Virus record (IMG/VR): IMGVR_UViG_3300007616_000002
Span: 1 to 64,000 of that record
Length of the DNA: 64,000 bases
Reading direction: 5' to 3' (one strand)
Source of the DNA: a virus
Position numbers and translations under genes: made by a program. Below are positions 3,741-40,600 of this stretch, piece after piece; the stretch's first letter is position 1; the number at the start of each line of letters is the position of its first letter. The notes under the pieces were generated by a model, which saw only the letters and a program-made list of their open reading frames with translations, made no database searches and was not told the DNA's origin.

Positions 3741-3979
3741 ACTTTATAACTTACCCGTCTCAAAACGACTCATGGGAACGAAATCACCGAAGAGTCAGAG
3801 TTACACCTTTGAATGCAGTTGTGGGAAGCAGTTCAGCGCCTTTGAGCACTGTAAACAGCATAAAAGTGCAAAAGGACACCGTGGTTACATTATTCTCGAT
3901 GGGGAGACTGGTGAGGAGTTAGAGCGAAAGCACTGCTGACCAAAAGCTTAAGTGCCCCCCGGCCCAACTTTTGGTTAAG

Positions 3980-4426
3980 ATGGACTGGGAAATCCCCGAC
4001 GAACCGAAAGTGTCTCTACGAGACGCAATCAAACCGATGCAGGAGAATATTCCTGTTGGACGACTTGCTGTCCCGTATAATCGAGACCCGCCGATGGTCT
4101 TCGTAAAGAAGGTCGAACGCGGAAATCCGCCTGAGAACCCCGAGCACTACTATCTTCACATCGATGGCTATGAGGATGGTGGGTATGTCATGTCAGAAGA
4201 CATTATCGACCAGCTTGAGCTACACGATGTTGGACTGGTGTTCACCTACGAGGAGGACACAGATATGGTGCTTGAGCACAAGCTTGAGGATTACTCCGAA
4301 ACGATAGATAGCGATGCTTACAGCAATAAAAAGCAGTTTGTAGCGCCTGAAAGTGAGGCTGAGTATCGGTGGGAGAGTCTCGGAACGGACCTCTTCACGA
4401 ACAATTCGTTCTGGAGCAAGCAATGA
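3980..4426 (+). CDS. hypothetical protein
   Basis: Acidic ORF after promoter CTTAAGTGCCCCCCG. Confidence 0.7.
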   Translation: MDWEIPDEPKVSLRDAIKPMQENIPVGRLAVPYNRDPPMVFVKKVERGNPPENPEHYYLHIDGYEDGGYVMSEDIIDQLELHDVGLVFTYEEDTDMVLEHKLEDYSETIDSDAYSNKKQFVAPESEAEYRWESLGTDLFTNNSFWSKQ

Positions 4427-5134: not shown

Positions 5135-5422
5135 ATGAAATTATCAGAGTCATATGTTCAAATCGAATCGAGCGAAGAACGAAAAATCCGTCAGGCTGTC
5201 GCTGAGCGGGTTTATGAGATTGAAGATGACGTAGAGGTCACTGTACGTGATGAAGACATTGAGGGCCTCGTAGAAGAGCTAATCGGGCTCATTGAACAGC
5301 GTATCGAGATAGAAGTCGAGGATTCGGATTATGCGACAGGCGAGCACTTCCGAAAGCACATTAAACACATTGAGTCCTTCACTCTCATCGCATTGGTCGA
5401 GTACTCTGACCGAAACATTTAA
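5135..5422 (+). CDS. hypothetical protein
   Basis: Acidic ORF in operon. Confidence 0.55.
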   Translation: MKLSESYVQIESSEERKIRQAVAERVYEIEDDVEVTVRDEDIEGLVEELIGLIEQRIEIEVEDSDYATGEHFRKHIKHIESFTLIALVEYSDRNI

Positions 5423-5443
5423 GTACCCCCGGTCCTAATAGTA

Positions 5444-5534
5444 GCATACACGCTGAGACAAGGCGACGGGTTACTTCGAGATTACAAATCTCATCAAGCA
5501 CTTCCCGACGCCGACTATCGCTCAGGGTGTTTGC
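5444..5534 (+). ncRNA. minimal Y-RNA-like ncRNA (bulged-helix module)
   Basis: Own TATA promoter at 5418; stems ACACGCTGAG/CTCAGGGTGT and GGCGACGGG/CCCGACGCC with internal loop ACAA/GACTATCG; TTACTTCG then hairpin GAGA-TTACAAA-TCTC. Confidence 0.7.
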
Positions 5535-5564
5535 ACGCCTCATCTCTCCCGCCCTCTTTCCGCT

Positions 5565-5746
5565 CGGGCGAGCGAGTCGGATACTTCGAATCCATTGATT
5601 GATAGCTCAGCACTGGATTAAGACCGGACAACCGGACCGCGTTGGACGGCGGAAGATACGTCCTGCGCCCAGCCTAAATACTGGGAACAGAGGCCCTGTC
5701 GGGGCGACTCGGAACAACAATCCGACCCGACACTCCTCCCGACTCC
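5565..5746 (+). ncRNA. structured ncRNA, possibly a divergent member of the same family
   Basis: GTCGGA-TACTTCG ... TCCGAC stem, D-arm-like TAGCTCAG, several hairpins, no credible ORF. Confidence 0.45.
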
Positions 5747-5899
5747 ACATTTTACCGAGCACTTTTCCGAGTGTGGGAATGGGGTTAACTTGGCACTTTT
5801 TTGAGACCGTAAAGTTTATTAGCCACCCGGCTAAAATATAACGCGTATGGGAAACAGACCCAGTATAGAGACGGTTGACACCGGGGTGAAATCACGGTG

Positions 5900-8147: not shown

Positions 8148-8461
8148 AATTTGTGGTAACTGCGGAAAGAATCTCAAAATACCGCATGGGCGAGGAGATA
8201 TAACGAAGGTTTCTGTTTCCTTTGGTGGTTCTTTCTGCTCTCGTGAATGTGCAGTTGAATCGTGGGAAGAGCACGACTTACTTGGATGACAATGTCACTC
8301 GGACTAGCTGAGTATTATCGTGGTTTTCGTGCGGAGGGCAACGGGCGTATTCGTTCGGTTATTGACGTGCTGTTTTTCTTACTGAGTGTTTTGGCGGTGC
8401 ATGTGGTGAAGGTATTCCCTCTTCCATAATCTTTATATTCCACCCGGAGTAAGTGGTGAGT

Positions 8462-9946
8462 ATGAAAGTAAAAGGAGACTACAATACTGCTGACGTAAAG
8501 ACAGAATCTGGCGAGGATGAAGCAATCGACCAGATTCAGTCGATGGTGGATGCTGAGGCCTTTGAGGGCGACGAAGACGTAGCAATTATGCCCGACTTCC
8601 ATTTCGGTTCAGGCGCTGTTATCGGCTTCACAATGCCGTTCAAAGACCGTGTTGCCCCGGCAACAGTTGGCGTTGACATTGGGTGCGGAATGACCGCCAT
8701 TCGTCTGAACGGGAATCCCGAACTCGAAGACTGGGACCTTCGTGAAGAAGTAGACGAGGCTGTTCGTGAGCGCGTCCCCGTCGGGTTCGACGTTCACAAC
8801 CGTAGCGACTATCACATGGTGGACGACTTCCCGTGGGAAGTCTGTGCGACGAAGCTGTCGGAGTTCGAGAAGACAACCGGCTTTGACCTCGGGGGAGACA
8901 AGCCGCCTACGTTCGATGGAACTGATATTCCCCTCTACGGCAAAGAGTATTTCATCGACCTACTGAAGCGTGTCGAGTATGACTCCACACGAGCCATTAA
9001 CTCGGTCGGCACACTCGGTGGTGGGAATCACTTTATCGAGATTGGCGAAGACCCTGACGCTGTTGAAAACCCCTACTGGGCAGTCATCCACTCTGGGTCC
9101 CGAGGTCTCGGGGCGTCTATCGCCCAGTACTGGATTGACCGTGCAGGCAAGATTCGAAACGCTACCGATGTGCGTAAGCACTTCCGCTTACTCCCCAAGG
9201 AGTACCGCAAGTACCTCAAGTTCGACGTTGATGGTGTGTCAGACGAAGACTTACTTGACTGGGTGCAGGGTGGCATGGGTGAGGATTACGTGGCCTACGA
9301 ACTACTCAAAGATGAGTATAAGGAAACTGACCCCGAGCGCATCGGTGAAATCTCTACCGCACTGAAGGACGCTCTCAACGTCATCAAGACGGGTGAAGAC
9401 CCCACGGCCTACCTCGAAGAAGAAGAGGCCCACGGATACATCGTGGACATGGTGTTCGCCCAGACCTACGCACAGGAGTCGCGCAAGCAGATGGCCAAGG
9501 CTGTCGAAGATGCATGGAAAGAGCTTGGCCTCACCGCCAAAGACATGGCGTCTCGGGACTTTATCGAGTCAGTCCACAACTACATCGACTTCCGCGACGC
9601 CACCATCAGAAAGGGTGCTTGTCGGGCCCACGAAGACGAGCGTGTTATCATCCCCTTCAACATGAAATATGGCACTCTCATCTGCAAGGGCAAGGGCGAC
9701 GAAGACTGGAACAACTCAGCACCCCACGGCGCTGGTCGTGCCATGTCGCGTACCGGAGCTAAACAGAAGTTCGAGCAGGACAACTTCGAAAACGAGATGG
9801 CAGACGCAGGAGTCTATCTCTCGAAACACCCGCTTGACGAAGCTCCCGGGGCGTACAAGGACCCTGAAACAATCGAAGATGCCATCGGCCCCACTGTCGA
9901 GGTGAAACGGCGTGTAAAGCCGCTCATTTCCATCAAGGCGGAGTGA
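8462..9946 (+). CDS. rtcB: RtcB RNA ligase
   Basis: MPDFHFG, GVDIGCG, GTLGGGNHFIE, HSGSRG, HNY, SAPHGAGR, DEAPGAYK. Confidence 0.97.
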   Translation: MKVKGDYNTADVKTESGEDEAIDQIQSMVDAEAFEGDEDVAIMPDFHFGSGAVIGFTMPFKDRVAPATVGVDIGCGMTAIRLNGNPELEDWDLREEVDEAVRERVPVGFDVHNRSDYHMVDDFPWEVCATKLSEFEKTTGFDLGGDKPPTFDGTDIPLYGKEYFIDLLKRVEYDSTRAINSVGTLGGGNHFIEIGEDPDAVENPYWAVIHSGSRGLGASIAQYWIDRAGKIRNATDVRKHFRLLPKEYRKYLKFDVDGVSDEDLLDWVQGGMGEDYVAYELLKDEYKETDPERIGEISTALKDALNVIKTGEDPTAYLEEEEAHGYIVDMVFAQTYAQESRKQMAKAVEDAWKELGLTAKDMASRDFIESVHNYIDFRDATIRKGACRAHEDERVIIPFNMKYGTLICKGKGDEDWNNSAPHGAGRAMSRTGAKQKFEQDNFENEMADAGVYLSKHPLDEAPGAYKDPETIEDAIGPTVEVKRRVKPLISIKAE

Positions 9947-10512: not shown

Positions 10513-11580
10513 ATGGACGAACGTACCGCTGACAACGTTATTAGAATCGCTCAACTGTTTATTTCTGCACTCGACGGTAATGAGTACCACAACTGGGACC
10601 ATCATCGCTCTGTTGTAGAGGAAGCTGTTACTATCGCACGAAAAGAAGGCCTCTCAAACGAGGATGAGCTACTTCTACGAGTTGCCACGTGGTTCCACGA
10701 CATTGGGTACGTCAACGGCGCTGATGACCATGAGAAGCTGAGTACTGACATTGCCAACGCTGTGCTCAAGAACAACGGTGTCAAGAAAAACTCTGAGGAT
10801 AGTCGTATCATCCGGGAAGCTATTCGGGGTACTGAGATTCCGAAGCGAGAAGAGCCGGAAAACAAAGTCGCCGCTATTCTCTCTGACGCAGACCTCGCTA
10901 ATCTCGGGAAAGATTATATCACGACGACAAAGCAACGAATGTCGGTCTATGAGGAGGCAGACACGGACCTGACCGAAGCAGAGTGGAACGAGGAAATGAG
11001 CCTCCCGCTTCTTGAACATGTCGCTGAAATCGGCTACTACACCGAAACAGCACAGGAGTTGTACGGCGACCAGCTTCGACAGAATCTCGAATACCTTCGT
11101 GAAGAGGTAGAAAACGGAACCCCTGACGTTATTGTTGCAGGAACTTTTGACGTGTTCCATATCGGACATGAAAAGATGTTCGACACCGCGTTCGCTCACG
11201 GGAATCCGATTATTGGTCTCACGAGTGATGAGATGGCGTCCAAGTCACGTGAACGTGAGGTCCGTGATTACAGTAGCCGTCTATCTGGAGTCGAGATGCA
11301 GGCTTCGGAAAGAGCTAGCATGTTCCATCGTGAGTACGAGGTACAACAAATCAATTCGACGTATGCTGACGCCATGACTATTGACGCGGACAAGATTATC
11401 GTCTCTCCCGAAGAAAAGACAATCGAGCGGGCTGAAGATATTAACGATGTTCGGGAAGAGAACGGGTTAAACACACTCGATATTATCGTTGCCGAGGAAG
11501 TGCGTGCTGATGATGGCGGTCGTATCTCTTCGACGCGCATTCGGAACAACGAAATCAACTACAAAGGGAATATTCTGTAG
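10513..11580 (+). CDS. HD phosphohydrolase fused to a cytidylyltransferase-family (archaeal PPAT/CoaD-like) domain
   Basis: YHNWDH...FHDIG...DADL; AGTFDVFHIGH, GLTSD, VSPE, ISSTRIR. Confidence 0.85.
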   Translation: MDERTADNVIRIAQLFISALDGNEYHNWDHHRSVVEEAVTIARKEGLSNEDELLLRVATWFHDIGYVNGADDHEKLSTDIANAVLKNNGVKKNSEDSRIIREAIRGTEIPKREEPENKVAAILSDADLANLGKDYITTTKQRMSVYEEADTDLTEAEWNEEMSLPLLEHVAEIGYYTETAQELYGDQLRQNLEYLREEVENGTPDVIVAGTFDVFHIGHEKMFDTAFAHGNPIIGLTSDEMASKSREREVRDYSSRLSGVEMQASERASMFHREYEVQQINSTYADAMTIDADKIIVSPEEKTIERAEDINDVREENGLNTLDIIVAEEVRADDGGRISSTRIRNNEINYKGNIL

Positions 11581-11625
11581 TCACCAAAAAGTTTAAGTAC
11601 CCCCGCCCCCAAGTGAGCATGTAGT

Positions 11626-11746
11626 AACGCACGAGGGAAACGGATACTTCGACTATAGAGTCACCGCGGGTTCAAATCCCGCTCCGAGATAGCCTCTCGG
11701 GGGTGTTTGGCTAACCATATACCCCCGTTTCCCGACTCTTGGCGTT
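11626..11746 (+). ncRNA. YrlA-like Y RNA (circularly permuted tRNA mimic)
   Basis: Promoter at 11592; end stem AACGC-ACGA-GGGAAACGG / CCGTTTCCC-GACTCTTG-GCGTT; ATACTTCG; T-arm GCGGG-TTCAAAT-CCCGC precedes loop-closed acceptor-like stem TCCGAGA/TCTCGGG and a D-like hairpin. Confidence 0.75.
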
Positions 11747-11801
11747 CAGGGTGGCACCCCATAAAAAGCCCGGGAGGATGGCTCCTCTCGTCAGAAAGCT
11801 T

Positions 11802-11929
11802 GGACCCATAGCTCAGTCTGGTAGAGCGCGTATTTATACTCTGTCCTGCTATTGGCACCCCGGTGCACTATGGAGGGAGTTACTCCGATGCTAACGGCGA
11901 GGTCGATGGTTCGAGTCCATCTGGGTCCA
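11802..11929 (+). ncRNA. tRNA-like RNA (GCT anticodon) with 54-nt structured insert in the anticodon stem
   Basis: Acceptor GGACCCA/TGGGTCC, D and T arms intact; anticodon stem CG^CCG/CGGCG interrupted at 11831-11884. Confidence 0.8.
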
Positions 11930-11933
11930 CTTC

Positions 11934-12058
11934 GGGGCCGTGGTGTAGTGGCCTATCATCGACTTATCCCGCACTCGGCTATTGCCGTCTTACGGACAAC
12001 GAGCGCGGTTACTTCGTATCTGGAACGACGGACCCTCGTTCAAATCGAGGCGGCCCCA
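11934..12058 (+). ncRNA. tRNA-like RNA (CTG anticodon, Gln-like) with 52-nt structured insert in the anticodon stem
   Basis: Acceptor GGGGCCG/CGGCCCC, T arm CCTCG-TTCAAAT-CGAGG; stem CG^TCGT/ACGACG interrupted at 11962-12013. Confidence 0.8.
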
Positions 12059-12148
12059 CTAATTTTAGAGGGCATCTCCGGTAGCGATTAGTACCTTGCC
12101 AACACCACTCCCACAAACTTTAATATCCCCCCGACACTTGTGTTGGAT

Positions 12149-13042
12149 ATGAGCTTCATGGATACACTCGCTCTGCCCTCGGAGATGACAAAACGCGACC
12201 ACTGGATTGTCTGGAAGGTTGATACACGCAACGGGAAAGAAACGAAAATTCCCATCTCGCCGCACACACGACAGTTCGGTAAAACTGACGACCCCCAGAC
12301 GTGGGCAACCTACGAGAAGGCTTCGAAGCTCGTTAACAAGAAGCCCCAGAAGTACGGTCTCGGATTCGTTTTCACCGAGGACGACCCGATAGTCGGAATC
12401 GACCTCGACCACGTTCGTGAGCCCGAGACGGGTCGTGTGACGGACGAGCGAGCCAAGGACATTATCAACACTCTCGACTCTTATACTGAGATTAGCCCGT
12501 CCGGTGATGGGTATCACGTCATCGTCAAGGGTCGTATGCCCTCGGGGCGTAACCGAAAGGGTGAGATAGAGATGTACGACTCTGGTCGATTCTTCACCGT
12601 CACTGGTAACCGAGTCCCGGGGACAGAGCCCGAAGTCAAGAACCGCGACTCGCCGCTTCGCGTGATTCACAACAAGTACCTCCGAGAGAGCATGACCCAG
12701 CAGACTCAGAGTACTACCAACGTAGGTGACCCTGAGATAGAACTGGACGATAACGAGGTCCTCAAGAAGGCCAAGAACTCCAAGTCTGGAAAGAAGTTCG
12801 AGGCGCTGTGGAACGGTATCACCTCGGGTTATGATTCACACAGTGAGGCTGACCTCGCACTCTGTAGCTATCTGGCGTTCTGGACTGGTGGAGACAAGAA
12901 CCAGATGGACGACCTCTTCCGTAAGTCTGGTCTCATGCGACCGAAGTGGGACAACCAACACGCTTCGGACGGGGATACCTACGGCGACCTCACCATTCAG
13001 AAGGCGATTCGAACATCCGATAGTTTCTACGGGCAGAACTGA
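12149..13042 (+). CDS. primase-polymerase (AEP, NrS-1-like)
   Basis: GIDLDH, YTEISPSGDGYHV, EMYDSGRFFTVTG, HSEADLALC..LAFWTG. Confidence 0.9.
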   Translation: MSFMDTLALPSEMTKRDHWIVWKVDTRNGKETKIPISPHTRQFGKTDDPQTWATYEKASKLVNKKPQKYGLGFVFTEDDPIVGIDLDHVREPETGRVTDERAKDIINTLDSYTEISPSGDGYHVIVKGRMPSGRNRKGEIEMYDSGRFFTVTGNRVPGTEPEVKNRDSPLRVIHNKYLRESMTQQTQSTTNVGDPEIELDDNEVLKKAKNSKSGKKFEALWNGITSGYDSHSEADLALCSYLAFWTGGDKNQMDDLFRKSGLMRPKWDNQHASDGDTYGDLTIQKAIRTSDSFYGQN

Positions 13043-13175
13043 GAATTAGTACTGCCAAACTTTGTAAAGCTTTTTCCTGAAACCTTTTATAAGATTCAAG
13101 ATTTTCCTTGACGGAGTAGGTAAACACACTCCGAGGCCAGCCACACGCGTGTGTTTGTATTTCTTTCAGAATAGC

Positions 13176-13216
13176 TGGACAGCCAGTTGGCCAACCAGTA
13201 ATCCAGCCAGTAATAC
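13176..13216. repeat. CCAG(TAAT) iteron-like repeats, copy 1
   Basis: CCAGTAATCCAGCCAGTAATA at 13195-13215 is identical to 31319-31339. Confidence 0.7.
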
Positions 13217-13408
13217 GCGCGTGTACACGTTCGTTTTGAAGTCTGTGACACTCAAGCGAGTGTGTGACTGACTCTTGCGAAACATTTATTATCCCCCCGA
13301 CTCTATACTTGGGTAAGCACTGATGGTTGAGGGGCGAACCGGACGCCACGGAGAGATGAGGCGTCGTAAGGTTTATACCCTACCCGGTGCATAAAACTAA
13401 ACACAAAC

Positions 13409-14587
13409 ATGAGTTTCCGAGACATTGCAAGCCAAGGCGCAGTTGACAGTCGAGAAAACAACGCAGATGATTCCGAAGATGACGGGCAGTCCGTCGAAGA
13501 CTACGGCATCGACGTAGACTTCGATGAAATTGCCTTCGTCCGATGTTCGCCCACCGTCTTTGTGACGGGCGTGTTCCCGAACGAGGACGAGGGTAACCCC
13601 ATCATCCGCTTCAAGAACGCGGACTACAACGACGGTCGATACGACCAAGGGTACCTCGGGCTGGTCATCGAAGACCCCGAGCCCATCGTCTCCGAAGACG
13701 AGGGAACTGGTGGCACTGTCATCCTGAAGACGGACGACCAAGACTCCACCGACTACCGAATGTTCGACTCCAACGACGACGAGACGAAGGTCGTGGAAGG
13801 CATGGGTGTCAAGTTCGGCAACAAGCTCTACGAGGGCGAGGTCCTCGAAGAGTTCTCCGAAGACCGTATTCTGCTGACGGTCAGCGGTGCTTCGTCCAAG
13901 AACGTGGCCCGTCGCCTCGACAAGAAGGGCGCTCTCGTGGCTGGCATGGACGAGGAGAACGGTGGCGTCAACGACGGCCTCATCGAGTACAAGCCCTACG
14001 ACCAGCGAGAAGACGGTCAGAACGAGGTCACGTCGCGCTACGCCCGTGACCCCGAACTCAAGACTGACCTCCACGAGACCCGTGTGGGCCTGTTCCTCGC
14101 CCGTCGTGAGGAACTGGACGACGAGAACACTGGCTACCTCGGTGCCGAAGGGCAGGGTCAGGAAGGAGACGGTCGTATTCCCCTCCTCGGGGAAGCACCT
14201 GACGGTGTGGACACGCACGCAGACCCCGATGAGGCCTCCTATGCGGAACTGGTGGCTGACGACAACCGTGGCGAGCGACCGATGTACTGGTACGTCGTCT
14301 TCAACGTCGAGGCCGAGGAAGAAATCGAGATGGAAGAGACCGACGACGAAATCGTGGGCTACTCGTGGCTCGATGACGACTGGGACCAGTTCGACCCGAG
14401 CGTCGGCGGTATTCCCGACGACCAGTGGGAGTTCGTGGAGCACTTCGTGGAGATGGTCGATGAAGGTGAAGTGACTGACACCTCCGAGGAGAACATCATC
14501 GCAAACATCGAAGACAACGCCGATGCCTTCGAGAGCGAGCCTGAGACGGACTCGATGGTCAACGCGATTACGAACCGCGTCGAATGA
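13409..14587 (+). CDS. highly acidic, codon-optimised protein (possible ssDNA-binding/replication factor)
   Basis: 392 aa, strong GC3 bias, tandem promoters, downstream T-tract; function guessed from context only. Confidence 0.8.
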   Translation: MSFRDIASQGAVDSRENNADDSEDDGQSVEDYGIDVDFDEIAFVRCSPTVFVTGVFPNEDEGNPIIRFKNADYNDGRYDQGYLGLVIEDPEPIVSEDEGTGGTVILKTDDQDSTDYRMFDSNDDETKVVEGMGVKFGNKLYEGEVLEEFSEDRILLTVSGASSKNVARRLDKKGALVAGMDEENGGVNDGLIEYKPYDQREDGQNEVTSRYARDPELKTDLHETRVGLFLARREELDDENTGYLGAEGQGQEGDGRIPLLGEAPDGVDTHADPDEASYAELVADDNRGERPMYWYVVFNVEAEEEIEMEETDDEIVGYSWLDDDWDQFDPSVGGIPDDQWEFVEHFVEMVDEGEVTDTSEENIIANIEDNADAFESEPETDSMVNAITNRVE

Positions 14588-14943: not shown

Positions 14944-15843
14944 ATGGAAACGTATCCCAAGTTACGCTATCCCGGGGAAGAGGCCACACAAGGCCTGTTC
15001 GCCAGTGGTTCTATTGTTATACAGGAGAAGTTAGATGGTTCGAACTTTCGGTTTACGTGGGAACCCGATACTGGATTCACGTTCGGGTCTCGGCGGACTG
15101 AAGGAGAGGGTCTTCACCGTGACCAGTTTGCCGACGCTATCGAGTACGTCGAAGAGAACGTCAGTGAAGTCGAGCTACGGAGCCAGCACAACGAGTTCGG
15201 TAAGCTAGTCTACTTCGGTGAGTTCATGAACCCGCATACCATCTCGTATGACTGGGAGGGAACGCCCGACTTCATCGGCTTCGACGTATGGTCTGAGGAC
15301 GCGCAGAACTTCCTCACAACGGGTCTTGTCCAATCCCTGTTCGATGGCCTCGACCTTCCCACTGCGCCGATTGTGACGACTGTGAGCGCCGATGAGTGGG
15401 ACGACTACGACTTTGAGTGCCCCGAGTCCGAATACTACGACGGAAAGGCTGAGGGTGTGGTGTTCAAGAATCATACGACCGACACTTACGGAAAGTATGT
15501 TCGAGAAGACTTCAAGGAGAAGAGCAAGCAGACCTTCGGACCCAGCAAAAAGTCCTCACTCAACGATACGGAGCGAATGGTCTACGCCTACATCACCGAG
15601 GCCCGTATTAGGAAAGCAATATATAGGCTTCAAGATGAAGAAGGTAAAAAGATTAGAATGGAGATGATGGCTGAAGGACTTCCGCAAGAAGTTATTTCGG
15701 ATTTTGTAGATGAGGAAGGGTTTAACGTGTTTATGAATGAGAATTGGAAAATAGGAATTGGAGAATTCCGGTCAATAGTATCTAGTAGATGTGCTGAAGT
15801 TCTTCGTCGTGAAGTAGATAAAAAAGTGAAGGAGGAGCTATAA
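14944..15843 (+). CDS. ATP-dependent RNA ligase (Rnl2-like)
   Basis: QEKLDGSNFR, FGSRR, FGEF, FIGFDV, EGVVFK, KYVREDFKE nucleotidyltransferase motifs. Confidence 0.85.
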   Translation: METYPKLRYPGEEATQGLFASGSIVIQEKLDGSNFRFTWEPDTGFTFGSRRTEGEGLHRDQFADAIEYVEENVSEVELRSQHNEFGKLVYFGEFMNPHTISYDWEGTPDFIGFDVWSEDAQNFLTTGLVQSLFDGLDLPTAPIVTTVSADEWDDYDFECPESEYYDGKAEGVVFKNHTTDTYGKYVREDFKEKSKQTFGPSKKSSLNDTERMVYAYITEARIRKAIYRLQDEEGKKIRMEMMAEGLPQEVISDFVDEEGFNVFMNENWKIGIGEFRSIVSSRCAEVLRREVDKKVKEEL

Positions 15844-16646
15844 TGCCTATAAAAATAACTTGTGATGAGTGTGGGGATGAATTTACTGTTCCACCCTCGA
15901 ATTCCGAGCAGAAATATTGCTCTCGTGAATGTTATTTATACAAAAATAATCCTAATAAAGAAGAAAAAGTTTCAGTCAATTGTGACTGGTGTGATAGTAA
16001 TATCCAAAGAATACCGTCATTAGTAGAACGAACAGAAAATAACTTTTGTGACCAAAAGTGTTCTTCCAAATGGAGGTCTGAGAACTGGACTGGTGAACGT
16101 TCACCGACATATAAAGACGCATCTGTCGAATGCACGTGTGAATGGTGTGGTTCAGATTATGAAGAATGGAGTACTCGAAAAGAACGTACTCGATTTTGCT
16201 CTCTTGAGTGTCGGAATAAATGGCAATCTTCACGTGATGGACCCGAGCACCCACTGTACAAAGGTGGTAGAAAAGAATTTGGTGAAAATTGGAAAGAAAT
16301 GAGAAGAGAAGCATTATCACATTACGGAGAAGAATGCAGTCTATGTGGAGCAGATTCATCTAATTCACTGATTGATGTTCATCATATAATACCAAGATGG
16401 CTATGGGACAATGTTGATGATGCAGACAAACTATGGAATCTTACTCCACTTTGTAGGTCTCACCATATGAAAGTTGAACGCCAAACTGAGAAAGTTATTG
16501 AGAAAATGGCCAAAGAGGAGGCCGAGAATATCTTCATGGAGGAGAACTGGGAAATCGACACGGGTGAAACACTCTCCATCGTCTCGAACCGGTGCTCCGA
16601 GGTCCTGCGTCGGATGATTGACCAGAAAATCAAGGAGGAGCTATGA
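15843..16646 (+). CDS. HNH homing endonuclease with Zn-finger repeats, fused to a displaced ligase C-terminus
   Basis: Repeated CxxC...FCS..C, DVHHIIP...NLTPLCRSHH; AT-rich; last ~45 aa resemble the ligase C-terminus. Confidence 0.88.
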   Translation: MPIKITCDECGDEFTVPPSNSEQKYCSRECYLYKNNPNKEEKVSVNCDWCDSNIQRIPSLVERTENNFCDQKCSSKWRSENWTGERSPTYKDASVECTCEWCGSDYEEWSTRKERTRFCSLECRNKWQSSRDGPEHPLYKGGRKEFGENWKEMRREALSHYGEECSLCGADSSNSLIDVHHIIPRWLWDNVDDADKLWNLTPLCRSHHMKVERQTEKVIEKMAKEEAENIFMEENWEIDTGETLSIVSNRCSEVLRRMIDQKIKEEL

Positions 16647-19103: not shown

Positions 19104-19592
19104 ATGAAGTTCAATCAGACCAAGAAGTCTATTGCTGAGAGAACTCGGACGACCAATCACGAGGGTGGGGAGGCGTTCGAACCCGAAGATGTTCGACTTG
19201 GGCTTTATAAAGTCGTTATCAACAATCTTCTTGAAGACTCGTTCTACGAGTCCGACGAGGAGAGCTTTGACAAGGTGAAGTCACGTTTTGAGGAGTGTGT
19301 CATCGAGCACCCCGAGTTCGTGCTGAAGCTCGCCTACTGGGCCCGTGAAGAGGCGTACCTTCGGCAGATTCCCCAGCTACTGCTCGTGTTTGCGGCTAAC
19401 AACGAGCACACGAAGGGGTACGTCCGTGAGTACTCTACTGGAGTCATGCAACGGGCTGACGAGCCGCTGGAGGTGCTTGCAATGCAGGTGGAACTCTTTG
19501 GGACGAGTATTCCGAACCCTCTCCAGAAGGGTATCGAGGACGCACTGCACACGTTCGATGAGTACGAAGTGTCAAAATGGGATACAGCATGA
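19104..19592 (+). CDS. TROVE/Ro60 N-terminal half
   Basis: TTNHEGGEAF, DSFYES, PEFVLKLAYWAR...LR, QRADE, IPNPLQKGI...FDEYEVSKW. Confidence 0.9.
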   Translation: MKFNQTKKSIAERTRTTNHEGGEAFEPEDVRLGLYKVVINNLLEDSFYESDEESFDKVKSRFEECVIEHPEFVLKLAYWAREEAYLRQIPQLLLVFAANNEHTKGYVREYSTGVMQRADEPLEVLAMQVELFGTSIPNPLQKGIEDALHTFDEYEVSKWDTA

Positions 19593-20374
19593 GCTGGAAT
19601 AAAGTTTCCAAGTCAGAGTGTACCGGTGCTCTGGTTCAGGCGAAGCAGGAGTTGGGTGAGTCGCCCAGCGTGTCCCAGTACCGTGAGTTGGACCTACAAC
19701 CAACAGTCTACACCATGCAAAATAAATTCGGTTCGTGGAACAAGGCGAAAAGGGCCGCTGGCCTGCAAGCTTGCACCAACCGTGTTGTGAGTGATGACGA
19801 GATAAGCATTGCCATCAACCTGTACGCAGGTGGACTGTCAGTCCGGGAGGTTGCTGATGAGTTAGAAGTCCAACCACAGACAATCCATTACCACCTTCAG
19901 AATGAGGGGGTTACCGAGTCCATCTCTGAGGCTCTAAAAGGACGTGACCATAGCTGGGGAGACAAGATTTCGCAATCTCTGGAAGGTCATGAGGTTAGCG
20001 AATCAACTCGTGAGAAGATTTCAGAGACCCATACCGGGAAAGAGCCTTGGAACAAGGGAAAAACGAAGAAATCCCACCCAGACGAAATCGACTACGGGCG
20101 CTCAGGTGAAGCGCACCATGCTTGGAAGGGTGGTATTAGTAGTGAGTTGAACCGACTGCGACAAACACCTGAGTACAAGGAATGGCGTAAGTCAGTGTTC
20201 GAGCGTGACAACTGGACATGCCAAGATTGCGGTCAGAGAGGCGGTGAATTGAACGCGCATCATATCAAATCATTTGCGGAGAACGAAGACCTTCGGTTTG
20301 ACGTAGATAACGGAGAGACACTATGCAAGGAACATCATATCGAGCGACACATGACGGAGGAGAGAAATGAGTAA
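19589..20374 (+). CDS. HNH homing endonuclease (HEG repeat + HTH + NUMOD3-like) splitting TROVE
   Basis: KFGSWNKAK, HTH, REKISETHTGK, WRKSVFERDNWTCQDCG..LNAHHI...NGETLCKEHH. Confidence 0.9.
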   Translation: MSWNKVSKSECTGALVQAKQELGESPSVSQYRELDLQPTVYTMQNKFGSWNKAKRAAGLQACTNRVVSDDEISIAINLYAGGLSVREVADELEVQPQTIHYHLQNEGVTESISEALKGRDHSWGDKISQSLEGHEVSESTREKISETHTGKEPWNKGKTKKSHPDEIDYGRSGEAHHAWKGGISSELNRLRQTPEYKEWRKSVFERDNWTCQDCGQRGGELNAHHIKSFAENEDLRFDVDNGETLCKEHHIERHMTEERNE

Positions 20375-21374
20375 CAAGAGCCGTGAGTTCAGCTACCGAG
20401 ACCTGATGAATCTCGTCCATCCCAAGCCCCGAGACGACCTTCGGAAAGAGCTATTCAAGCGGATTGCACTCGGTGAACTGGACGACCACCCCGAGGTCGA
20501 GCCGCTGAAACAGCACCGGACGTGGGAGGATACCATGTCGAACGACGATGACGACCGCTCGGAGGCAGAAAAGTTCCACGACCGGCTAGACGATATGGGC
20601 CTCTTCGCCAAGATTCGGAACGTCCGGAACATGCTTGAGGCTGGGCTGGAGCCCGAGGTAATCCTCACAGACGAGGACCTCGATTCTGTTCCCCACGTCA
20701 AGCTGTTCCCGTTCCGCTTCTACCAAGCGTACAAGGCTGTAAAAGACGCTGGGTACCGCTCGACGTATCTCGATGTGTGGTTCGAGAACGCCATCGACCG
20801 GTCTGTCGAAAACGTTCCCGAGGAGTTCGGAGACACCTATGTAGCGGCTGACACCTCCGGGTCGATGACGTGGACGCCCATCTCCGATAACTCGGACCTT
20901 ACCCCGATGGAGATAGGGGCGCTCTTCGGCGCTGTGTGCGGTTCGAAGGGCGCAAAGGTGTCTGCCTTCGCAAGTACCCACGAAGACGTTCAGTTCCACG
21001 CTGGCGAGCCTGTGCTCTCGATTCAGGACCGCATCAAGGAGGCCCCCGCAGGCGGCGGGACACACGGGTACAAAGTTCTCAAGACACTCCGTCAACGAGG
21101 AGAGAGTTGGGAGAACGTCGCACTCTTCACGGACACCCAACTTTGGGGCGGCTCGCTGAAGGAGGAGTGGGACAAGTACATGCAGGAGGTCAATCCCAAC
21201 GCGAGCCTCTACATCGTAGACCTCGCAAGTTACGGCGACCTCGTGGTTCCCGAGGGGTACGATTCGGTCTATCGAGTGTCGGGTTGGAATGAGAACATCG
21301 TAAAGCACATCCGGTACGCATCGGAAACGGATGCCGCGATTCAGGAAGTCGAATCTGTCGGCTCTCCTGAGTAG
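20367..21374 (+). CDS. TROVE/Ro60 C-terminal half with vWA domain
   Basis: RDLMNLVHPKP, TWE, IRNVRNM, FPFRFYQAY, MIDAS DTSGSM, GGGT, FTDTQ, VSGWNE. Confidence 0.9.
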   Translation: MSNKSREFSYRDLMNLVHPKPRDDLRKELFKRIALGELDDHPEVEPLKQHRTWEDTMSNDDDDRSEAEKFHDRLDDMGLFAKIRNVRNMLEAGLEPEVILTDEDLDSVPHVKLFPFRFYQAYKAVKDAGYRSTYLDVWFENAIDRSVENVPEEFGDTYVAADTSGSMTWTPISDNSDLTPMEIGALFGAVCGSKGAKVSAFASTHEDVQFHAGEPVLSIQDRIKEAPAGGGTHGYKVLKTLRQRGESWENVALFTDTQLWGGSLKEEWDKYMQEVNPNASLYIVDLASYGDLVVPEGYDSVYRVSGWNENIVKHIRYASETDAAIQEVESVGSPE

Positions 21375-21412: not shown

Positions 21413-22120
21413 ATGAGTTCAATCGAGAGCGTAGAAAACGTTGAAGAGCGAAAGGTAATTGCGGTTGATTTTGACAAAACCCTCACGACTGGAGAGGGTG
21501 CCGACTTTTGGGAAGACGACGAGAAAGAGTATCCCAACGAAGAAGTTATTGACTGGGTGAAAGAGATGTATCACAACGGACACGTCATCATTATCCATAC
21601 CGCCCGACAGTGGGAACAGGCTTCTACTGTCGAATCGTACTTAGTCAAGTGGAACGTTGAGTACCATGGACTACGCTGTAACAAGACCGGTGCTGACCTC
21701 TATGTTGACGATAAGGCTGAAAACGTCGAGAAGGTATCAAATTCGAATGAGGAAACTTCTGTAGTCGGAAAAGAGTCAGTCTCTGAGAAAAAGTGTGATA
21801 TATGCTCAGAGAAGTTCTCGACGGACGATAATCGGACAGTGTGTAGTAAACACGGTGCTTTCTCAACTACCGAAAAGGAAGATGAAGACGGAGAAGACAA
21901 ATACATTGGAGAGGTGACATTCTTCAATGATACTGGTGGTTATGGGTTTGTCGAAGCAAAGGGTCTCGATAAAGAGGTGTTCTTCCATATGGAAGACCAC
22001 GATTTTCCGGAACCGGAAGAAGGATACAAAGCCGTGTTCGAGGTCGAACAGCACGAAAAGGGTCCGCGGGTTGAGAAGTTCCACGAGTTAAACACCAACG
22101 TTTACTTCACGAAAGAGTAG
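21413..22120 (+). CDS. HAD-family phosphatase fused to a C-terminal cold-shock domain
   Basis: AVDFDKTL, HTAR, LYVDDK; GEVTFFNDTGGYGFVE...EVFFH...GPR. Confidence 0.85.
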   Translation: MSSIESVENVEERKVIAVDFDKTLTTGEGADFWEDDEKEYPNEEVIDWVKEMYHNGHVIIIHTARQWEQASTVESYLVKWNVEYHGLRCNKTGADLYVDDKAENVEKVSNSNEETSVVGKESVSEKKCDICSEKFSTDDNRTVCSKHGAFSTTEKEDEDGEDKYIGEVTFFNDTGGYGFVEAKGLDKEVFFHMEDHDFPEPEEGYKAVFEVEQHEKGPRVEKFHELNTNVYFTKE

Positions 22121-22158
22121 TCGAAATACTTTTAACCCGCCCGGTCATCTTATCGGGT

Positions 22159-23094
22159 ATGAGTGAACCCCACCATTGGCCGCTTCATGCTGTCAAAGAA
22201 TTTGAAAACCAGCATGATATAGACGTTATCGAGATTCGAGACTTTGGCTCCCGTTCGAACAATATGGATGGTCCCGACTCCGACAGGGATGCAATGTTCA
22301 TATTCGACCAGCCCGCACTGGCGCACAAAACACTCGGTAACGAGGTCGACACGATTCATACCGAAAAGTATGACGTTGACTTCCACGGATGGAATCTTCG
22401 GAAATTCGCCAGCCTGCTCTCCGATTCGAACCCGCAGGCGCTCGATTTCCTTAACTCAGAGATTCAGTACCATACCGCAGAGCCGAAACACGCCATCAGT
22501 GAGCAACTTGAAGACCTTCGACTGTACGCAAATCGGAACTTCAATCCGATTCGACTCTACATGCACAACCGGTCGAAGGCCAAATCGAACTACGAGAAGT
22601 ACGTTCTCCGAAAACTCATCGGACAGAACGGAGAGAGTGGCCAGTATATCATCGAAGGAGAAACGGATGAAAAATACGAGGTCACACCCAAAGGGGAAGA
22701 CGCAAACCCGTACAACAGCATAGGAAAGAATAACGTCGGTGACGGAGAGAAGTTCCGACTAGCAACCACTGACCGGACAATTCGGCGTAACCTGAAGGTC
22801 ATTCAAGTGGTTCTCTATGCCCGTCACATCCGCAGAAGTAAGTCGCTTCCGCAGATGGACTTTGAGGAGTTCCTTGAGCACAGTGTCGATTCTACCATTC
22901 AAGAGCGCGTCATGGACCTGCTGGAGATGAAACGAAAGGGTGAGGGAGATATGGAAGCAGGAAACCCCTTCGAAGACCTCATTGAGAGTGAAATCAACTA
23001 CGACGTTGACCATCAGAACCTCAACCAAGCAGGTATAGACCGTGAGATAGTCAATCAGTTCATCCTCGACATAGACGGTCTGCTCTACCGGTAA
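22159..23094 (+). CDS. RlaP-like Pol-beta nucleotidyltransferase
   Basis: FGSRSNNMDGPDSDRD, GWNLRKF..LL..SNPQALDFLNS. Confidence 0.8.
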   Translation: MSEPHHWPLHAVKEFENQHDIDVIEIRDFGSRSNNMDGPDSDRDAMFIFDQPALAHKTLGNEVDTIHTEKYDVDFHGWNLRKFASLLSDSNPQALDFLNSEIQYHTAEPKHAISEQLEDLRLYANRNFNPIRLYMHNRSKAKSNYEKYVLRKLIGQNGESGQYIIEGETDEKYEVTPKGEDANPYNSIGKNNVGDGEKFRLATTDRTIRRNLKVIQVVLYARHIRRSKSLPQMDFEEFLEHSVDSTIQERVMDLLEMKRKGEGDMEAGNPFEDLIESEINYDVDHQNLNQAGIDREIVNQFILDIDGLLYR

Positions 23095-40590: not shown

Positions 40591-40600
40591 CTCGCACATA

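What the first reader, a model, noticed from the sequence alone, without database searches (positions are those of the whole stretch)
11626..11746. YrlA-type circularly permuted tRNA mimic with an A-bulged Ro-like site
Seen: the order is end stem, TACTTCG, small hairpin, T arm, loop-closed 7-bp acceptor-like stem, D-like hairpin, end stem. The terminal helix pairs GC-A-CGA with TTG-GC (single bulged A), followed by a 3'-side bulge GACTC. Established: this permuted order is the YrlA architecture, and vertebrate Y RNAs have the same geometry with a bulged C (GUCCGA/GCACUUGAC). Inference: a viral Y RNA with altered specificity; a bulged A occurs in all four copies.
Basis: partly seen in the sequence, partly recalled or inferred. 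Interest (0 to 1): 0.85.

Follow-up and report, generated by a model that had tools for sequence, protein, structure and literature searches.

The report
Archaeal-virus YrlA-type Y RNA
This 121-base stretch is a small-RNA gene of a salt-loving archaeal virus, built like the tRNA-mimicking "Y RNAs" that partner the Ro60 ring protein in bacteria and phages. It extends a known RNA-surveillance system to archaeal viruses but is not a new kind of system.

Summary
The described fold is present at 11626-11746 (MFE -54.3 kcal/mol, z -5.3). The order is: end stem with bulged A, CGA/UUG and a GACUC bulge; a 9-bp stem; GGAUACUUCG; a small hairpin; a canonical T arm; a sealed 6-7-bp acceptor-like stem; a D-like hairpin.

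It is a divergent YrlA-family Y RNA:
- The virus, a distant HGTV-1 relative, encodes Ro60 (split by an HNH gene), RtcB, an RNA ligase and RlaP.
- The junction motif plus T arm retrieves 55 viral contigs, mostly canonical YrlAs. All 5 sampled carry TROVE.
- A covariance model built only from 25 such YrlAs ranks the element first, full length (36.1 bits, E 1e-7).
- Related archaeal-virus contigs have orthologues with different but complementary stems.

Against full membership, Rfam YrlA (RF02553) gives only 14.7 bits (threshold 69; Ro-linked phage YrlAs reach 37-42), and the D arm is not YrlA-like.

"Bulged A = altered specificity" is not supported. That base is A or G among paralogues and relatives, within an invariant R-CRA-N9-WUACUUCR register shared with canonical YrlAs.

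The window holds five module copies. Two sit unpermuted inside tRNA-shaped genes next door.

This scan earlier noted Ro60 with Y-like RNAs in other putative archaeal viruses. Expression and Ro binding are untested.

The parts
11583..11612 (+). Archaeal-type promoter (BRE-like AAAA(A)G + TATA TTTAAGT at 11592-11598). It is placed to start transcription about 11621-11625, at the foot of the terminal stem.
   Evidence: Member of a 14-copy, 30-nt repeat family found upstream of genes and RNA genes (family D2). TSS position is inferred from the usual haloarchaeal TATA-to-start distance (own knowledge), not measured.
11626..11746 (+). The YrlA-type Y RNA (copy C): whole folded unit.
   Evidence: Fold z -5.26. 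R1 model hit 11616-11748 at 36.1 bits, E 1e-7, model positions 1-146. RF02553 full-length alignment at 14.7 bits.
11626..11643 (+). 5' strand of the Ro-type module: AACGC, A11631, CGA, then the 9-nt stem strand GGGAAACGG.
   Evidence: Pair table. R-CRA-N9-WUACUUCR register in 16 of 16 related elements.
11642..11651 (+). Junction motif GGAUACUUCG. It contains the published YUAY position that opens the V region.
   Evidence: Together with the T arm it retrieves 55 IMG/VR contigs, most of them canonical YrlAs.
11651..11662 (+). V hairpin GACU-AUAG-AGUC. It has a 4-nt loop, so there is no anticodon loop.
11666..11682 (+). T arm GCGGG-UUCAAAU-CCCGC.
   Evidence: tmRNA/tRNA T-arm match. A natural variant in a brine metagenome changes C11667>T together with G11681>A, the two sides of one pair (depth 2).
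11683..11701 (+). Sealed acceptor-like stem (6-7 bp) closed by UAGCC.
   Evidence: The L005 orthologue has a 9-bp stem of unrelated sequence at the same place.
11701..11724 (+). D-like hairpin GGGUGU-U-UGG-CUAA-CCA-U-AUACCC. It keeps a GG but is not the canonical UAGCUCAG..GG.AGAGC D arm, and the UA (U8-A9-like) linker is absent.
   Evidence: The L005 orthologue shares UGG(U)CUAAC.
11725..11746 (+). 3' strand of the module: CCGUUUCCC, bulge GACUC, UUG, GCGUU. CGACU(C)UU resembles the CGACUU of phage YrlA 3' strands.
5441..5536 (+). Paralogue A: the Ro-type module on a plain hairpin (CUGAG-A-CAA-GGCGACGGG-UUACUUCG ... CCCGACGCC-GACUA-UCG-CUCAG). It lies behind its own promoter (5409-5438).
   Evidence: Fold z -4.59..
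5562..5760 (+). Paralogue B: long form, GCUCGG-G-CGA-GC-GAGUCGG-AUACUUCG ... CCGACUC-CACAUUUUA-CCGAGC.
   Evidence: Fold z -3.64. The orthologous pair A+B is seen at L008:1893-2185.
11802..11929 (+). Paralogue E: tRNA-shaped gene (Rfam tRNA 46 bits) with a capped Ro-type module inserted after nt 28 of the anticodon stem.
11934..12058 (+). Paralogue D: tRNA-shaped gene with the capped module ([GCUA]-UUG-CCGU-CUU-ACGG-[A]-CAA on the stem CCGCACUCG/CGAGCGCGG) inserted after nt 27. A T-run at 12063-12066 follows.
   Evidence: Orthologue at L008:6209-6333 with a covarying anticodon-like stem (UCGU/ACGA against UCGC/GCGA).
19104..21374 (+). Ro60 (TROVE + vWA) gene, the presumed protein partner. It is split into an N part (19104-19592) and a C part (20367-21374) by an HNH/NUMOD3 endonuclease ORF (19577-20374).
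   Evidence: Alignment with the intact HGTV-1 Ro (48% identity) shows a clean break between ...KWD and SREF....
8453..9946 (+). RtcB RNA ligase, part of the surrounding RNA-repair gene set.
   Evidence: Pfam PF01139, E 1.5e-62.
10513..11580 (+). HD-domain + cytidylyltransferase-like protein. Its gene ends 3 nt before the promoter-like repeat (11583-11612) and 46 nt before the RNA gene.
14944..15843 (+). ATP-dependent RNA ligase family protein.
   Evidence: Pfam PF09414, E 2e-21.
21413..23094 (+). HAD/PNKP-like phosphatase fused to a cold-shock domain (21413-22120), and an RlaP RNA-repair nucleotidyltransferase (22159-23094). Both lie directly after Ro.

Best explanation
The element is a virus-encoded Y RNA of the YrlA type.

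Proposed mechanism, with the basis for each step:
1. Transcription (inferred from sequence). It is transcribed from the archaeal promoter at 11583-11612, probably as the first unit of a roughly 450-nt RNA operon that also carries the two tRNA-shaped genes at 11802-12058. It is then trimmed to about 120 nt.
2. Terminal module (predicted fold, supported by comparison). The two ends pair into a long stem. The internal-loop module of that stem is a purine, CGA, then exactly nine stem bases before AUACUUCG on the 5' strand, with CGACU..UUG on the 3' strand. This is the counterpart of the Ro60/Rsr docking site of bacterial and phage Y RNAs.
3. tRNA-like end (predicted fold, supported by comparison). 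The other end is a tRNA written in rotated order: V hairpin, T arm, sealed acceptor stem and a degenerate D hairpin. It has no anticodon loop and no free CCA end, so it cannot decode.
4. Function (inferred by homology, untested). The RNA most likely docks on the virus's own Ro60. Its tRNA-like end would gate or aim that particle at tRNA-shaped substrates or tRNA-binding enzymes during infection. It would work alongside the neighbouring RNA-repair genes (RtcB, RNA ligase, RlaP, HAD/PNKP-CSD), for example when host nucleases cut tRNAs.
For: (1) Fold. It is as described and far better than shuffles (z -5.26).

(2) Genomic context. Ro60/TROVE-vWA lies 7.4 kb downstream. RtcB, RNA ligase, RlaP and HAD/PNKP-CSD lie in the same 15 kb. 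This parallels the rsr-yrlBA-rtcBA arrangement of Salmonella (literature listed).

(3) Family signature.
- GGATACTTCG-N8-32-GGTTCRANTCC, taken from the element, finds 55 viral contigs against my rough estimate of about 5 expected by chance.
- Most show the canonical YrlA order, including a perfect D arm.
- 5 of 5 sampled contigs carry a TROVE gene.
- Two contigs have the lengths of Caulobacter phages CcrPW and CcrColossus. CcrColossus is named in the literature as YrlA-bearing.

(4) Independent model. Model R1 was built from 25 of those YrlA-type RNAs from IMG/VR viral contigs, with no haloarchaeal-virus sequence. It puts 11616-11748 first among 230 kb, full length, with every modelled pair formed (36.1 bits, E 1e-7).

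(5) Orthologues. L005:9096-9242 (32.9 bits) has the same order with different T, acceptor-like and 9-bp stems. For example, GGGAACCGG/CCGGUUCCC stands against GGGAAACGG/CCGUUUCCC. L008:6340-6450 is a second orthologue.

(6) Module conservation.
- The spacing CRA-N9-WUACUUCR holds in 16 of 16 elements from five viruses or contigs.
- 12 of 16 have a perfect 8-nt complement nearby, against 14% of random positions (binomial 8e-8).
- The same module sits directly upstream of Ro genes in HGTV-1, L007-L009 and the distant AT-rich L012/L013.

(7) Natural variant. A brine-metagenome contig changes both sides of T-stem pair 11667-11681, C-G to U-A.

(8) Precedent. Phage Ro60 binds phage-encoded Y-like RNAs in vitro (Thermus phage phiLo, PMC12135203).
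Against: - The curated Rfam YrlA model (RF02553) aligns the element full length at only 14.7 bits. The gathering score is 69, and Ro-linked phage YrlAs score 37-42.
- R1's 36 bits is low beside the 80-130 bits of typical phage YrlAs. A tandem-tRNA false positive scores about the same (35.3 bits). R1's training set was also selected with a motif taken from this element, so part of the score is by construction.
- The D arm and the UA linker, which are strongly conserved in YrlA, are not conserved here.
- The gene is 7.4 kb from Ro rather than adjacent to it.
- HGTV-1's syntenic copy lacks the whole tRNA-like part, so that part may be dispensable.
- The Ro gene is split, so its function as two chains is assumed.
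- No RNA data exist. There is no oligo-T terminator right after the element, so a discrete 120-nt species is inferred.
Confidence: 0.8

Rival explanations
1. A decaying, no-longer-functional paralogue. It would be one of several duplicated Y-like genes, drifting away from the YrlA consensus. The real Ro partners would be the simpler hairpin copies (5441-5760).
For: The D arm is degenerate and the scores are low (14.7 bits RF02553; 36 bits R1). Phage loci hold graded arrays of 5-9 copies, down to about 20 bits. HGTV-1 has lost the tRNA-like part in the syntenic copy.
Against: All six helices are intact. It has its own consensus promoter. The L005 orthologue keeps the T arm, sealed stem and small hairpin with different sequences. 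A natural variant has a compensatory T-stem change.
Confidence: 0.07
2. A Ro-independent tRNA decoy or adaptor. The sealed tRNA-like body would soak up or redirect a host tRNA-binding factor (defence nuclease, modification enzyme or RNase P), and the terminal stem would only provide stability.
For: The T arm and elbow-forming GG are kept, and the acceptor end is sealed. M. smegmatis YrlA with a 7-bp stem is an RNase P substrate. The virus invests heavily in tRNAs and RNA repair.
Against: The most conserved part of the family is the terminal module with its fixed N9 register, not the tRNA body. That module is found directly in front of Ro genes in distant genomes. With no anticodon loop, it cannot decoy anticodon nucleases.
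Confidence: 0.07
3. A leader or processing scaffold for the downstream tRNA-shaped genes. It would be co-transcribed and discarded, with no function of its own.
For: There is no terminator between 11746 and 11802, and the first T-run is at 12063-12066. In HGTV-1 and L008 a module RNA and a module-bearing tRNA-like gene also share one promoter.
Against: The order of the two units is reversed in L008, so a 5' leader role is not conserved. The element matches an independent YrlA model full length.
Confidence: 0.04
4. A true circularly permuted tRNA gene. The transcript would be circularised at a bulge-helix-bulge motif and re-cut to give a working tRNA, as in Cyanidioschyzon or Thermofilum.
For: The 3'-half-before-5'-half order is present, an RtcB ligase is encoded nearby, and the host is archaeal.
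Against: There is no 7-nt anticodon loop anywhere; the V hairpin has a 4-nt loop. The end stem has 1-nt and 5-nt bulges around 3 bp, not 3-4-3. The 5-nt loop leaves no room for normal end processing. The D arm is not tRNA-like.
Confidence: 0.02

Closest known systems
YrlA (Y RNA-like A) of bacteria and phages, partner of Rsr/Ro60 (Chen et al. 2014, PMC4201824; structure PDB 6CU1, bioRxiv 10.1101/312249; Rfam RF02553)
   Same: - Ends pair into a stem carrying a CGA-type motif on the 5' strand.
- (Y)UAY opens the V region; here it is the identical GGAUACUUCG.
- Canonical T arm, acceptor stem sealed by a loop, then a D-side hairpin.
- No anticodon loop and no CCA end.
- Encoded in a genome with Ro60 and RtcB.
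- The same R-CGN-N9-AUACUUCG register as Ro-linked phage copies.
   Different: - The host domain is an archaeal virus.
- The D arm and UA linker are not conserved.
- The 5' motif reads CACGAGG instead of GNCGAA(N)G.
- It lacks the two-base-pair helix (tRNA 27-28:42-43) that I find covarying in phage YrlAs.
- It scores far below Rfam's threshold.
- It lies 7.4 kb from Ro.
Yrl1 and Yrl2 of Thermus phage phiLo with phiRo60 (PMC12135203)
   Same: A phage-encoded Ro60 plus several phage-encoded Y-like RNAs, recognised by a stem / internal loop / CGAA-type motif. Binding has been shown in vitro for that pair.
   Different: Those RNAs lie immediately upstream of the Ro gene and are described as stem-bulge-stem RNAs. 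Here the RNA has a tRNA-like body and sits in a separate RNA operon. PNPase, the effector co-opted there, is to my knowledge absent from haloarchaea.
Vertebrate Y RNAs (Rfam RF00019)
   Same: A terminal stem with a single bulged base next to CGA/UUG, and a 3'-side internal loop. The published Ro contact is GGUCCGA.
   Different: No sequence-model match. Vertebrate Y RNAs have no tRNA-like domain, and the bulged base there is C.
Circularly permuted tRNA genes (Cyanidioschyzon merolae; Thermofilum pendens) - own knowledge
   Same: The 3' half of a tRNA is written before the 5' half.
   Different: Those genes have a BHB motif at the junction and yield decoding tRNAs. This element has no BHB, no anticodon loop and a sealed acceptor end.

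Membership tests
YrlA-type Y RNA | Encoded in a genome, usually close to the gene, that has Ro60/Rsr (TROVE + vWA) | tested here: met
   TROVE/vWA_Ro60 at 19104-21374, 7.4 kb downstream, inside an RNA-repair gene cluster. Not adjacent as in most bacteria.
YrlA-type Y RNA | 5'/3' terminal stem whose 5' strand carries GNCGAAN0-1G (the CGAA motif) | tested here: inconclusive
   The terminal stem is present. The 5' strand reads C-A-C-G-A-G-G, so 5 of 7 positions match and the CGA core is kept. The register R-CGN-N9-AUACUUCG is identical to that of Ro-linked phage YrlAs.
YrlA-type Y RNA | Conserved YUAY at the start of the V region | tested here: met
   AUAC within GGAUACUUCG. The first base is A rather than Y, but the 10-mer is identical to that of the YrlA-type RNAs on most of the 55 viral contigs (4-5 of which are plain tRNA-Arg).
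YrlA-type Y RNA | tRNA-type T stem-loop | tested here: met
   GCGGG-UUCAAAU-CCCGC. A compensatory natural variant is seen.
YrlA-type Y RNA | [quoted passage not shown] | tested here: met
   6-7 bp, loop UAGCC. The orthologue has a 9-bp stem of other sequence.
YrlA-type Y RNA | Conserved D stem-loop (UAGCUCAG..GG.AGAGC) and UA linker after the acceptor-like stem | tested here: not met
   GG-GUGU-UUGGCUAACCAU-AUAC. Only the GG is kept and there is no UA linker.
YrlA-type Y RNA | Reaches the gathering score of Rfam RF02553 | tested here: not met
   14.7 bits against 69. Ro-linked phage YrlAs, including the contig of CcrColossus length, also fail at 37-42 bits, so the threshold is narrow.
YrlA-type Y RNA | Matches a model built from independent Ro-linked YrlAs | tested here: met
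   R1: 36.1 bits, E 1e-7, full length, top hit of 230 kb. This is within the range of the divergent paralogues of phage arrays (20-56 bits). Part of the score is by construction.
YrlA-type Y RNA | Binds Ro60/Rsr; carries tRNA modifications (pseudouridine 55, dihydrouridine) | not testable with these tools
   Needs RIP/EMSA and modification mapping.
Circularly permuted tRNA gene | Bulge-helix-bulge motif at the junction and a 7-nt anticodon loop after rejoining | tested here: not met
   The bulges are 1 and 5 nt around 3 bp, and there is no 7-nt anticodon loop. ARAGORN with intron search finds nothing at 11626-11746.
Vertebrate-type Y RNA (RF00019) | Match to the family model | tested here: not met
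   No hit at E up to 10 in 11000-13500.

The most novel reading that the evidence does not exclude
The element is the permuted member of a pair of forms.

In Ro-linked phage YrlAs, two bases after the D arm covary with two bases after the V hairpin (tRNA 27-28:42-43). YrlA is therefore a whole tRNA opened inside the 5' strand of its anticodon stem, with the Ro-docking stem growing out of that gap.

The two genes next door (11802-12058), L008:6209-6333 and HGTV-1's 'tRNA-Asp + intron' carry the same Ro-type module at the same site. In them the module is capped by a hairpin and the acceptor end is free, and I could find no bulge-helix-bulge splice motif.

They could be Ro60-tethered, possibly chargeable tRNAs. 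They could instead be tRNAs with a Y-RNA 'intron' removed by a non-standard route, and may be living relatives of the tRNA ancestor of Y RNAs.
Probability: 0.3. Interest if true: 0.8.

Novelty: new member of a known kind. Interest (0 to 1): 0.5.

Why it matters
- In the papers I could search, Y RNAs partnered with Ro60 are described in animals, bacteria and bacteriophages. For archaeal viruses only the Ro60 protein had been noted (HGTV-1 annotation; Asgard viruses).
- This element and its four paralogues show that HGTV-1-like haloarchaeal viruses carry the full set: Ro60, several Y RNAs, and RtcB with other repair enzymes.
- HGTV-1 can be grown on Halogranum, so the system is open to experiment.
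- To my knowledge haloarchaea lack PNPase, the effector that bacterial Y RNAs recruit. The tRNA-like end must therefore aim Ro60 at something else.
- The presence of permuted and unpermuted forms side by side bears on the old proposal that Y RNAs descend from tRNAs.

Tried and rejected
- The search for related loci with the adjacent HD-nucleotidyltransferase protein found no relatives in viral contigs.
- blastn of 11560-12060 against GenBank phages found no match.
- The pattern CACGA-N90-120-TTGG was used to find further copies. It gave 16 hits against 19.7 expected, so it is uninformative.
- The extra GGTTCRANTCC hits at 52262 and 63418 lie in coding-looking sequence and were dropped.
- Ro-based search of genome contigs returned only a Polyangium MAG and no archaeal host.
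- A strict pattern for the tRNA-embedded form in viral contigs gave 0 hits.
- Sequencing runs: no RNA holder was listed. The contigs of X2 and X3 cover only 11905-12100 and are identical there. X5 did not lay.
- After I first concluded that Rfam has no YrlA family. That was wrong: RF02553 exists but is narrow.
- I looked for a bulge-helix-bulge motif around the module inserts of the neighbouring tRNA-shaped genes and of HGTV-1's copy. The linker lengths (7 + 7 nt in HGTV-1) would fit, but the bases do not pair, so I rejected it by hand without a dedicated tool.
- The MAFFT alignment of the three archaeal copy-C orthologues was poor outside the module, so no formal covariation count was made on it.
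Full report
WHAT THE WINDOW IS

The window is the first 64 kb of a 76.7-kb IMG/VR virus record, estimated about 53% complete.
- GC content is 50%.
- A repeated 30-nt promoter motif of archaeal type, (A/G)AAA-N-TTTAAGT-ACCCCCG, stands in front of genes.
- It carries at least 14 tRNA genes.
- Its Ro60-like protein is 45-48% identical to that of Halogranum tailed virus HGTV-1, and gene order is shared: RtcB, then RNA genes, then Ro, then a nucleotidyltransferase.

It is therefore a distant HGTV-1-like haloarchaeal tailed virus.

THE OBSERVATION

The order is:
- terminal helix AACGC/GCGUU;
- unpaired A11631;
- CGA paired with UUG;
- a 5-nt bulge GACUC on the 3' side;
- a 9-bp stem GGGAAACGG/CCGUUUCCC;
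- a multiloop holding AUACUUCG, a 4-bp hairpin, a textbook T arm (GCGGG-UUCAAAU-CCCGC), a 6-7-bp stem sealed by UAGCC, and a further hairpin.

The energy is -54.3 kcal/mol, against -34.9 +/- 3.7 for shuffles (z -5.26). No ORF of 80 aa or more overlaps it. A consensus promoter lies at 11583-11612.

WHAT IT IS: CONTEXT

- TROVE hits at 19290-19586 and 20505-20759 belong to a Ro60 gene at 19104-21374.
- That gene is cut cleanly between ...KWD and SREF... by an HNH/NUMOD3 endonuclease ORF. Both halves are in the same frame and overlap the HNH ORF at each end.
- The C half keeps the vWA_Ro60 domain and a DTSGS MIDAS motif.
- Around it lie RtcB (8453-9946), an HD + cytidylyltransferase-like protein (10513-11580), an RNA ligase (14944-15843), a HAD/PNKP-like phosphatase fused to a cold-shock domain (21413-22120) and an RlaP nucleotidyltransferase (22159-23094).

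This is the gene company that YrlA keeps in bacteria (papers found).

WHAT IT IS: COMPARISON WITH PUBLISHED YrlA FEATURES

Chen et al. 2014 define YrlA by:
- a 5' GNCGAAN0-1G motif;
- a conserved YUAY opening the V region;
- nearly invariant T and D stem-loops;
- a variable sealed acceptor-like stem between them;
- location near Ro60, in more than 250 bacteria and phages.

The crystal-structure paper adds the conserved UA linker and the absence of a free CCA end and of an anticodon loop. The element has this order.

WHAT IT IS: MODEL-BASED TESTS

Rfam model:
- The Rfam scans of the window reported only tRNAs and a T-arm fragment.
- Rfam does hold YrlA as RF02553, a lead from earlier notes of this scan.
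- Searched directly, RF02553 aligns 11637-11734 over its full length but at only 14.7 bits, against a gathering score of 69.
- The threshold is narrow. Ro-linked phage YrlAs, including the contig with the length of CcrColossus, reach only 37-42 bits.

Independent test:
- The motif GGATACTTCG followed within 8-32 nt by GGTTCRANTCC, both read from the element, occurs in 55 IMG/VR contigs. My rough estimate of the chance expectation is about 5.
- Most of these show G-N-(C/U)-G-N-A-G, five bases, GGAUACUUCG, a V hairpin, AGGUC, a T arm, a sealed stem, GUAGCUCAG..GG.AGAGC and a CGACUU-type 3' strand.
- A few (L022, L028, L044, L050) are plain tRNA-Arg(ACG) genes.
- All 5 contigs I sampled encode a TROVE protein.
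- From 25 non-redundant copies I built alignment A3. Its consensus structure is 93.4% paired and beats 500 of 500 shuffles on covariation.
- Model R1, built from A3, was run over 230 kb comprising the window, the rest of the genome, HGTV-1 and related contigs. It ranks 11616-11748 first: 36.1 bits, E about 1e-7, model positions 1-146, no broken pair.

Caveats:
- R1's invariant columns were selected with this element's own motif.
- A tandem-tRNA artefact scores 35.3 bits.
- Typical phage YrlAs score 80-130 bits.
- Phage loci hold arrays of five to nine Y-like genes grading down to 20-56 bits. The element sits in that divergent tail.

WHAT IT IS: RELATIVES

Using an alignment of the window's and HGTV-1's Ro C-terminal halves as the query, I found the related contigs L005/L006 (39% identity) and L007-L009 (55-56%).
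- L005:9096-9242 is an orthologue (R1 32.9 bits). It reads CUCGG-CAA-GGGAACCGG-UUACUUCG, V region, T arm UCGCG/CGCGA, a 9-bp sealed stem UUGUCGUGC/GCACGGCAA, a small hairpin with loop GUCUAA, then CCGGUUCCC-ACUCAU-CCGAG. Every helix differs in sequence but is kept.
- L008:6340-6450 is a second, more eroded orthologue.
- In HGTV-1 the syntenic copy (L003:16455-16535) keeps the module and AUACUUCA-AGACUAUGAAUC but has no T, acceptor-like or D parts.
- A brine-metagenome contig covering 11573-11717 carries C11667>T together with G11681>A, the two sides of one T-stem pair (depth 2, so weak evidence).

THE SHARED MODULE AND THE 'BULGED A'

The window has five copies of the module:

| Copy | Coordinates | Form |
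|---|---|---|
| A | 5441-5536 | plain hairpin |
| B | 5562-5760 | long form |
| C | 11626-11746 | this finding |
| E | 11802-11929 | inside a tRNA-shaped gene |
| D | 11934-12058 | inside a tRNA-shaped gene |

- Across 16 elements from the window, HGTV-1, L005, L007, L008 and the distant AT-rich L012, the 5' strand is always purine-C(G/A/U)A, exactly nine bases, then (A/U)UACUUC(G/A).
- In 12 of the 16, the eight bases before the motif have a perfect complement nearby, against 14% of random positions (binomial 8e-8).
- The nine-base stems all differ in sequence.
- Canonical phage YrlAs have the same register, for example G-CGU-AGAUCACGG-AUACUUCG.
- The opposite strand is a loosely conserved 7-8-nt stretch: GACUCUUG, GACUAUCG, AGAUUUUA, AAUUUCAA. 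It resembles the CGACUU of phage YrlAs.
- The purine before CRA is A in copies A, C, D and E, and G in copy B. L008 has both A and G. It is G in all Ro-leader copies and in L005 and L012.

It therefore corresponds to the variable N of GNCGAA and gives no sign of a changed Ro specificity. The CGA/UUG mini-helix is only half supported, because its middle position reads G.U, A-U, A/C or U/U.

The module also stands directly in front of the Ro start codon in HGTV-1 (L003:19393-19508) and in L007-L009, reaching into the SD-like GGUGAU/GAGGU. This suggests possible autoregulation. The window's Ro gene lacks this leader.

HOW IT PROBABLY WORKS

Shown here: the sequence, the fold prediction, family likeness, conservation and gene context.

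Inferred:
- Transcription starts near 11621-11625.
- The element is co-transcribed with copies E and D, up to the T-run at 12063-12066.
- The RNA is trimmed to about 120 nt.
- The terminal module docks on the viral Ro60. For comparison, Thermus phage Ro60 binds its own Yrl RNAs.
- The tRNA-like end acts as gate or adaptor for tRNA-shaped RNAs or tRNA-binding enzymes in an RNA-repair or quality-control particle.

To my knowledge haloarchaea lack PNPase, so the effector is unlikely to be the bacterial one. The rivals (a decaying paralogue, a Ro-independent tRNA decoy, a mere operon leader, a true permuted tRNA) are each less consistent with the conserved module, the intact helices and the lack of an anticodon loop or BHB motif.

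A WIDER POINT SEEN ON THE WAY

- In the 25 phage YrlAs, the two bases after the D arm pair with the two bases after the V hairpin. They are 95.9% paired, with double changes in 11 and 9 sequences and pair types GC, AU, CG, UA, GU.
- Together with the V hairpin, which often has a 7-nt anticodon-like loop, this rebuilds a complete anticodon arm.
- These YrlAs are therefore whole tRNAs opened after nucleotide 28, with the Ro stem growing out of the gap.
- Copies D and E of the window, L008:6209-6333 and HGTV-1's annotated 'tRNA-Asp + intron' have the same module at the same place (after nt 27 or 28, preceded by GG(A/U)UACU). In them the module is capped by a small hairpin and the acceptor end is open. 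The lead came from note e1-6099697.
- Removing the insert restores CGCCG/CGGCG in copy E and GUCGU/ACGAC in copy D. The stem covaries between D and its L008 orthologue.
- I found no bulge-helix-bulge motif, so how or whether the inserts are removed is open.

That is another finding's subject, but it frames copy C as the permuted partner of unpermuted neighbours.

NOVELTY AND VERDICT

- Phage Ro60 with Y RNAs is established.
- Ro60 proteins have been noted in archaeal viruses.
- I found no paper describing Y RNAs of archaeal viruses.
- This scan has already flagged Ro60 with Y-like RNAs in other putative archaeal viruses.

The element is a new, divergent member of a known kind. The 'altered specificity' idea is dropped. 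Confidence that it is a Ro60-partner Y RNA is about 0.8. Interest is moderate (0.5), and higher for the tRNA-embedded forms next door.

Noticed in passing
window 19104-21374: The Ro60 gene is split into 162-aa and 335-aa ORFs by a 265-aa HNH/NUMOD3/HTH homing-endonuclease ORF whose ends overlap both halves. Compared with the intact HGTV-1 protein, only about two residues are missing at the break. No group I intron model matched the window. In HGTV-1 an HNH gene sits just after the intact Ro gene.
   Followed up: partly
window 11802-11929 and 11934-12058: Two tRNA-shaped genes carry a capped Ro-type module inside the 5' strand of the anticodon stem (after nt 28 and nt 27). Removing it restores 5-bp stems with 7-nt loops AUGCUAA and AUCUGGA. 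I could not build a bulge-helix-bulge motif.
   Followed up: partly
alignment A3 (25 YrlA-type RNAs from IMG/VR viral contigs, e.g. L032:8969-9112): Columns 49-50 pair with columns 121-122, at 95.9% paired and with 11 and 9 double changes. The two bases after the D arm close the V hairpin into a full anticodon-like arm, so these YrlAs look like tRNAs permuted at position 28/29. The V loops often read like anticodon loops (CUUGUAA, CUGCUAA, CUUCCAA ...).
   Followed up: yes
L003 (HGTV-1, NC_021328): 16455-16535, 19393-19508, 11240-11400: Three unannotated module-bearing RNAs:
- a short hairpin before the 'tRNA-Asp + intron';
- a leader directly in front of the Ro gene (gene 129), reaching its SD-like GGUGAU;
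- a promoter-led element with a T arm that overlaps the annotated minus-strand CDS 148.

The 'tRNA-Asp(GTC) + intron' reads better as a CUG-anticodon tRNA shape with a module insert after nt 28.
   Followed up: partly
L042 (contig of CcrColossus length) 3154-4262; L048 4779-6204: Bacterial-phage Ro loci hold tandem arrays of 7-9 Y-like RNA genes. Scores grade from 130 down to about 20 bits, and some copies are about 79 nt with no tRNA-like body.
   Followed up: no
L012:9238-9426 and L013:2100-2260: AT-rich contigs with a Ro gene only 21-23% identical carry two tandem hairpin RNAs just upstream of Ro, with the same AG-CGA-N9-UUACUUCG register. The module is therefore far older than the haloarchaeal virus lineage.
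   Followed up: no
L005:8964-9000 and 9100-9173: Beside the L005 Y-like RNAs there is an acceptor-stem + T-arm minihelix (GGGAACG..AGGGUUCGAGUCCCU..CGUUCUC). ARAGORN calls part of the copy-C orthologue a 'tRNA-Pyl(cta)', because its V hairpin has the loop AUCUAGC.
   Followed up: no
window 40530-40600: A T arm (GGUGG-UUCGAUU-CCACC) flanked by GACAAC/GUUGUC lies right after tRNA-Asn. No tRNA is called there, so it may be another tRNA-like RNA.
   Followed up: no
window 38250-38367: tRNA-Ser(UGA) with a 33-nt palindromic insert at the canonical 37/38 position (ARAGORN with intron search). This is a different kind of insert from the module-bearing ones.
   Followed up: no
window 11573-11717: A brine-metagenome contig (run X4) is a close variant of the promoter and of the 5' two-thirds of the element. 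Its differences include G11615>A, T11625>C and the paired C11667>T / G11681>A.
   Followed up: partly
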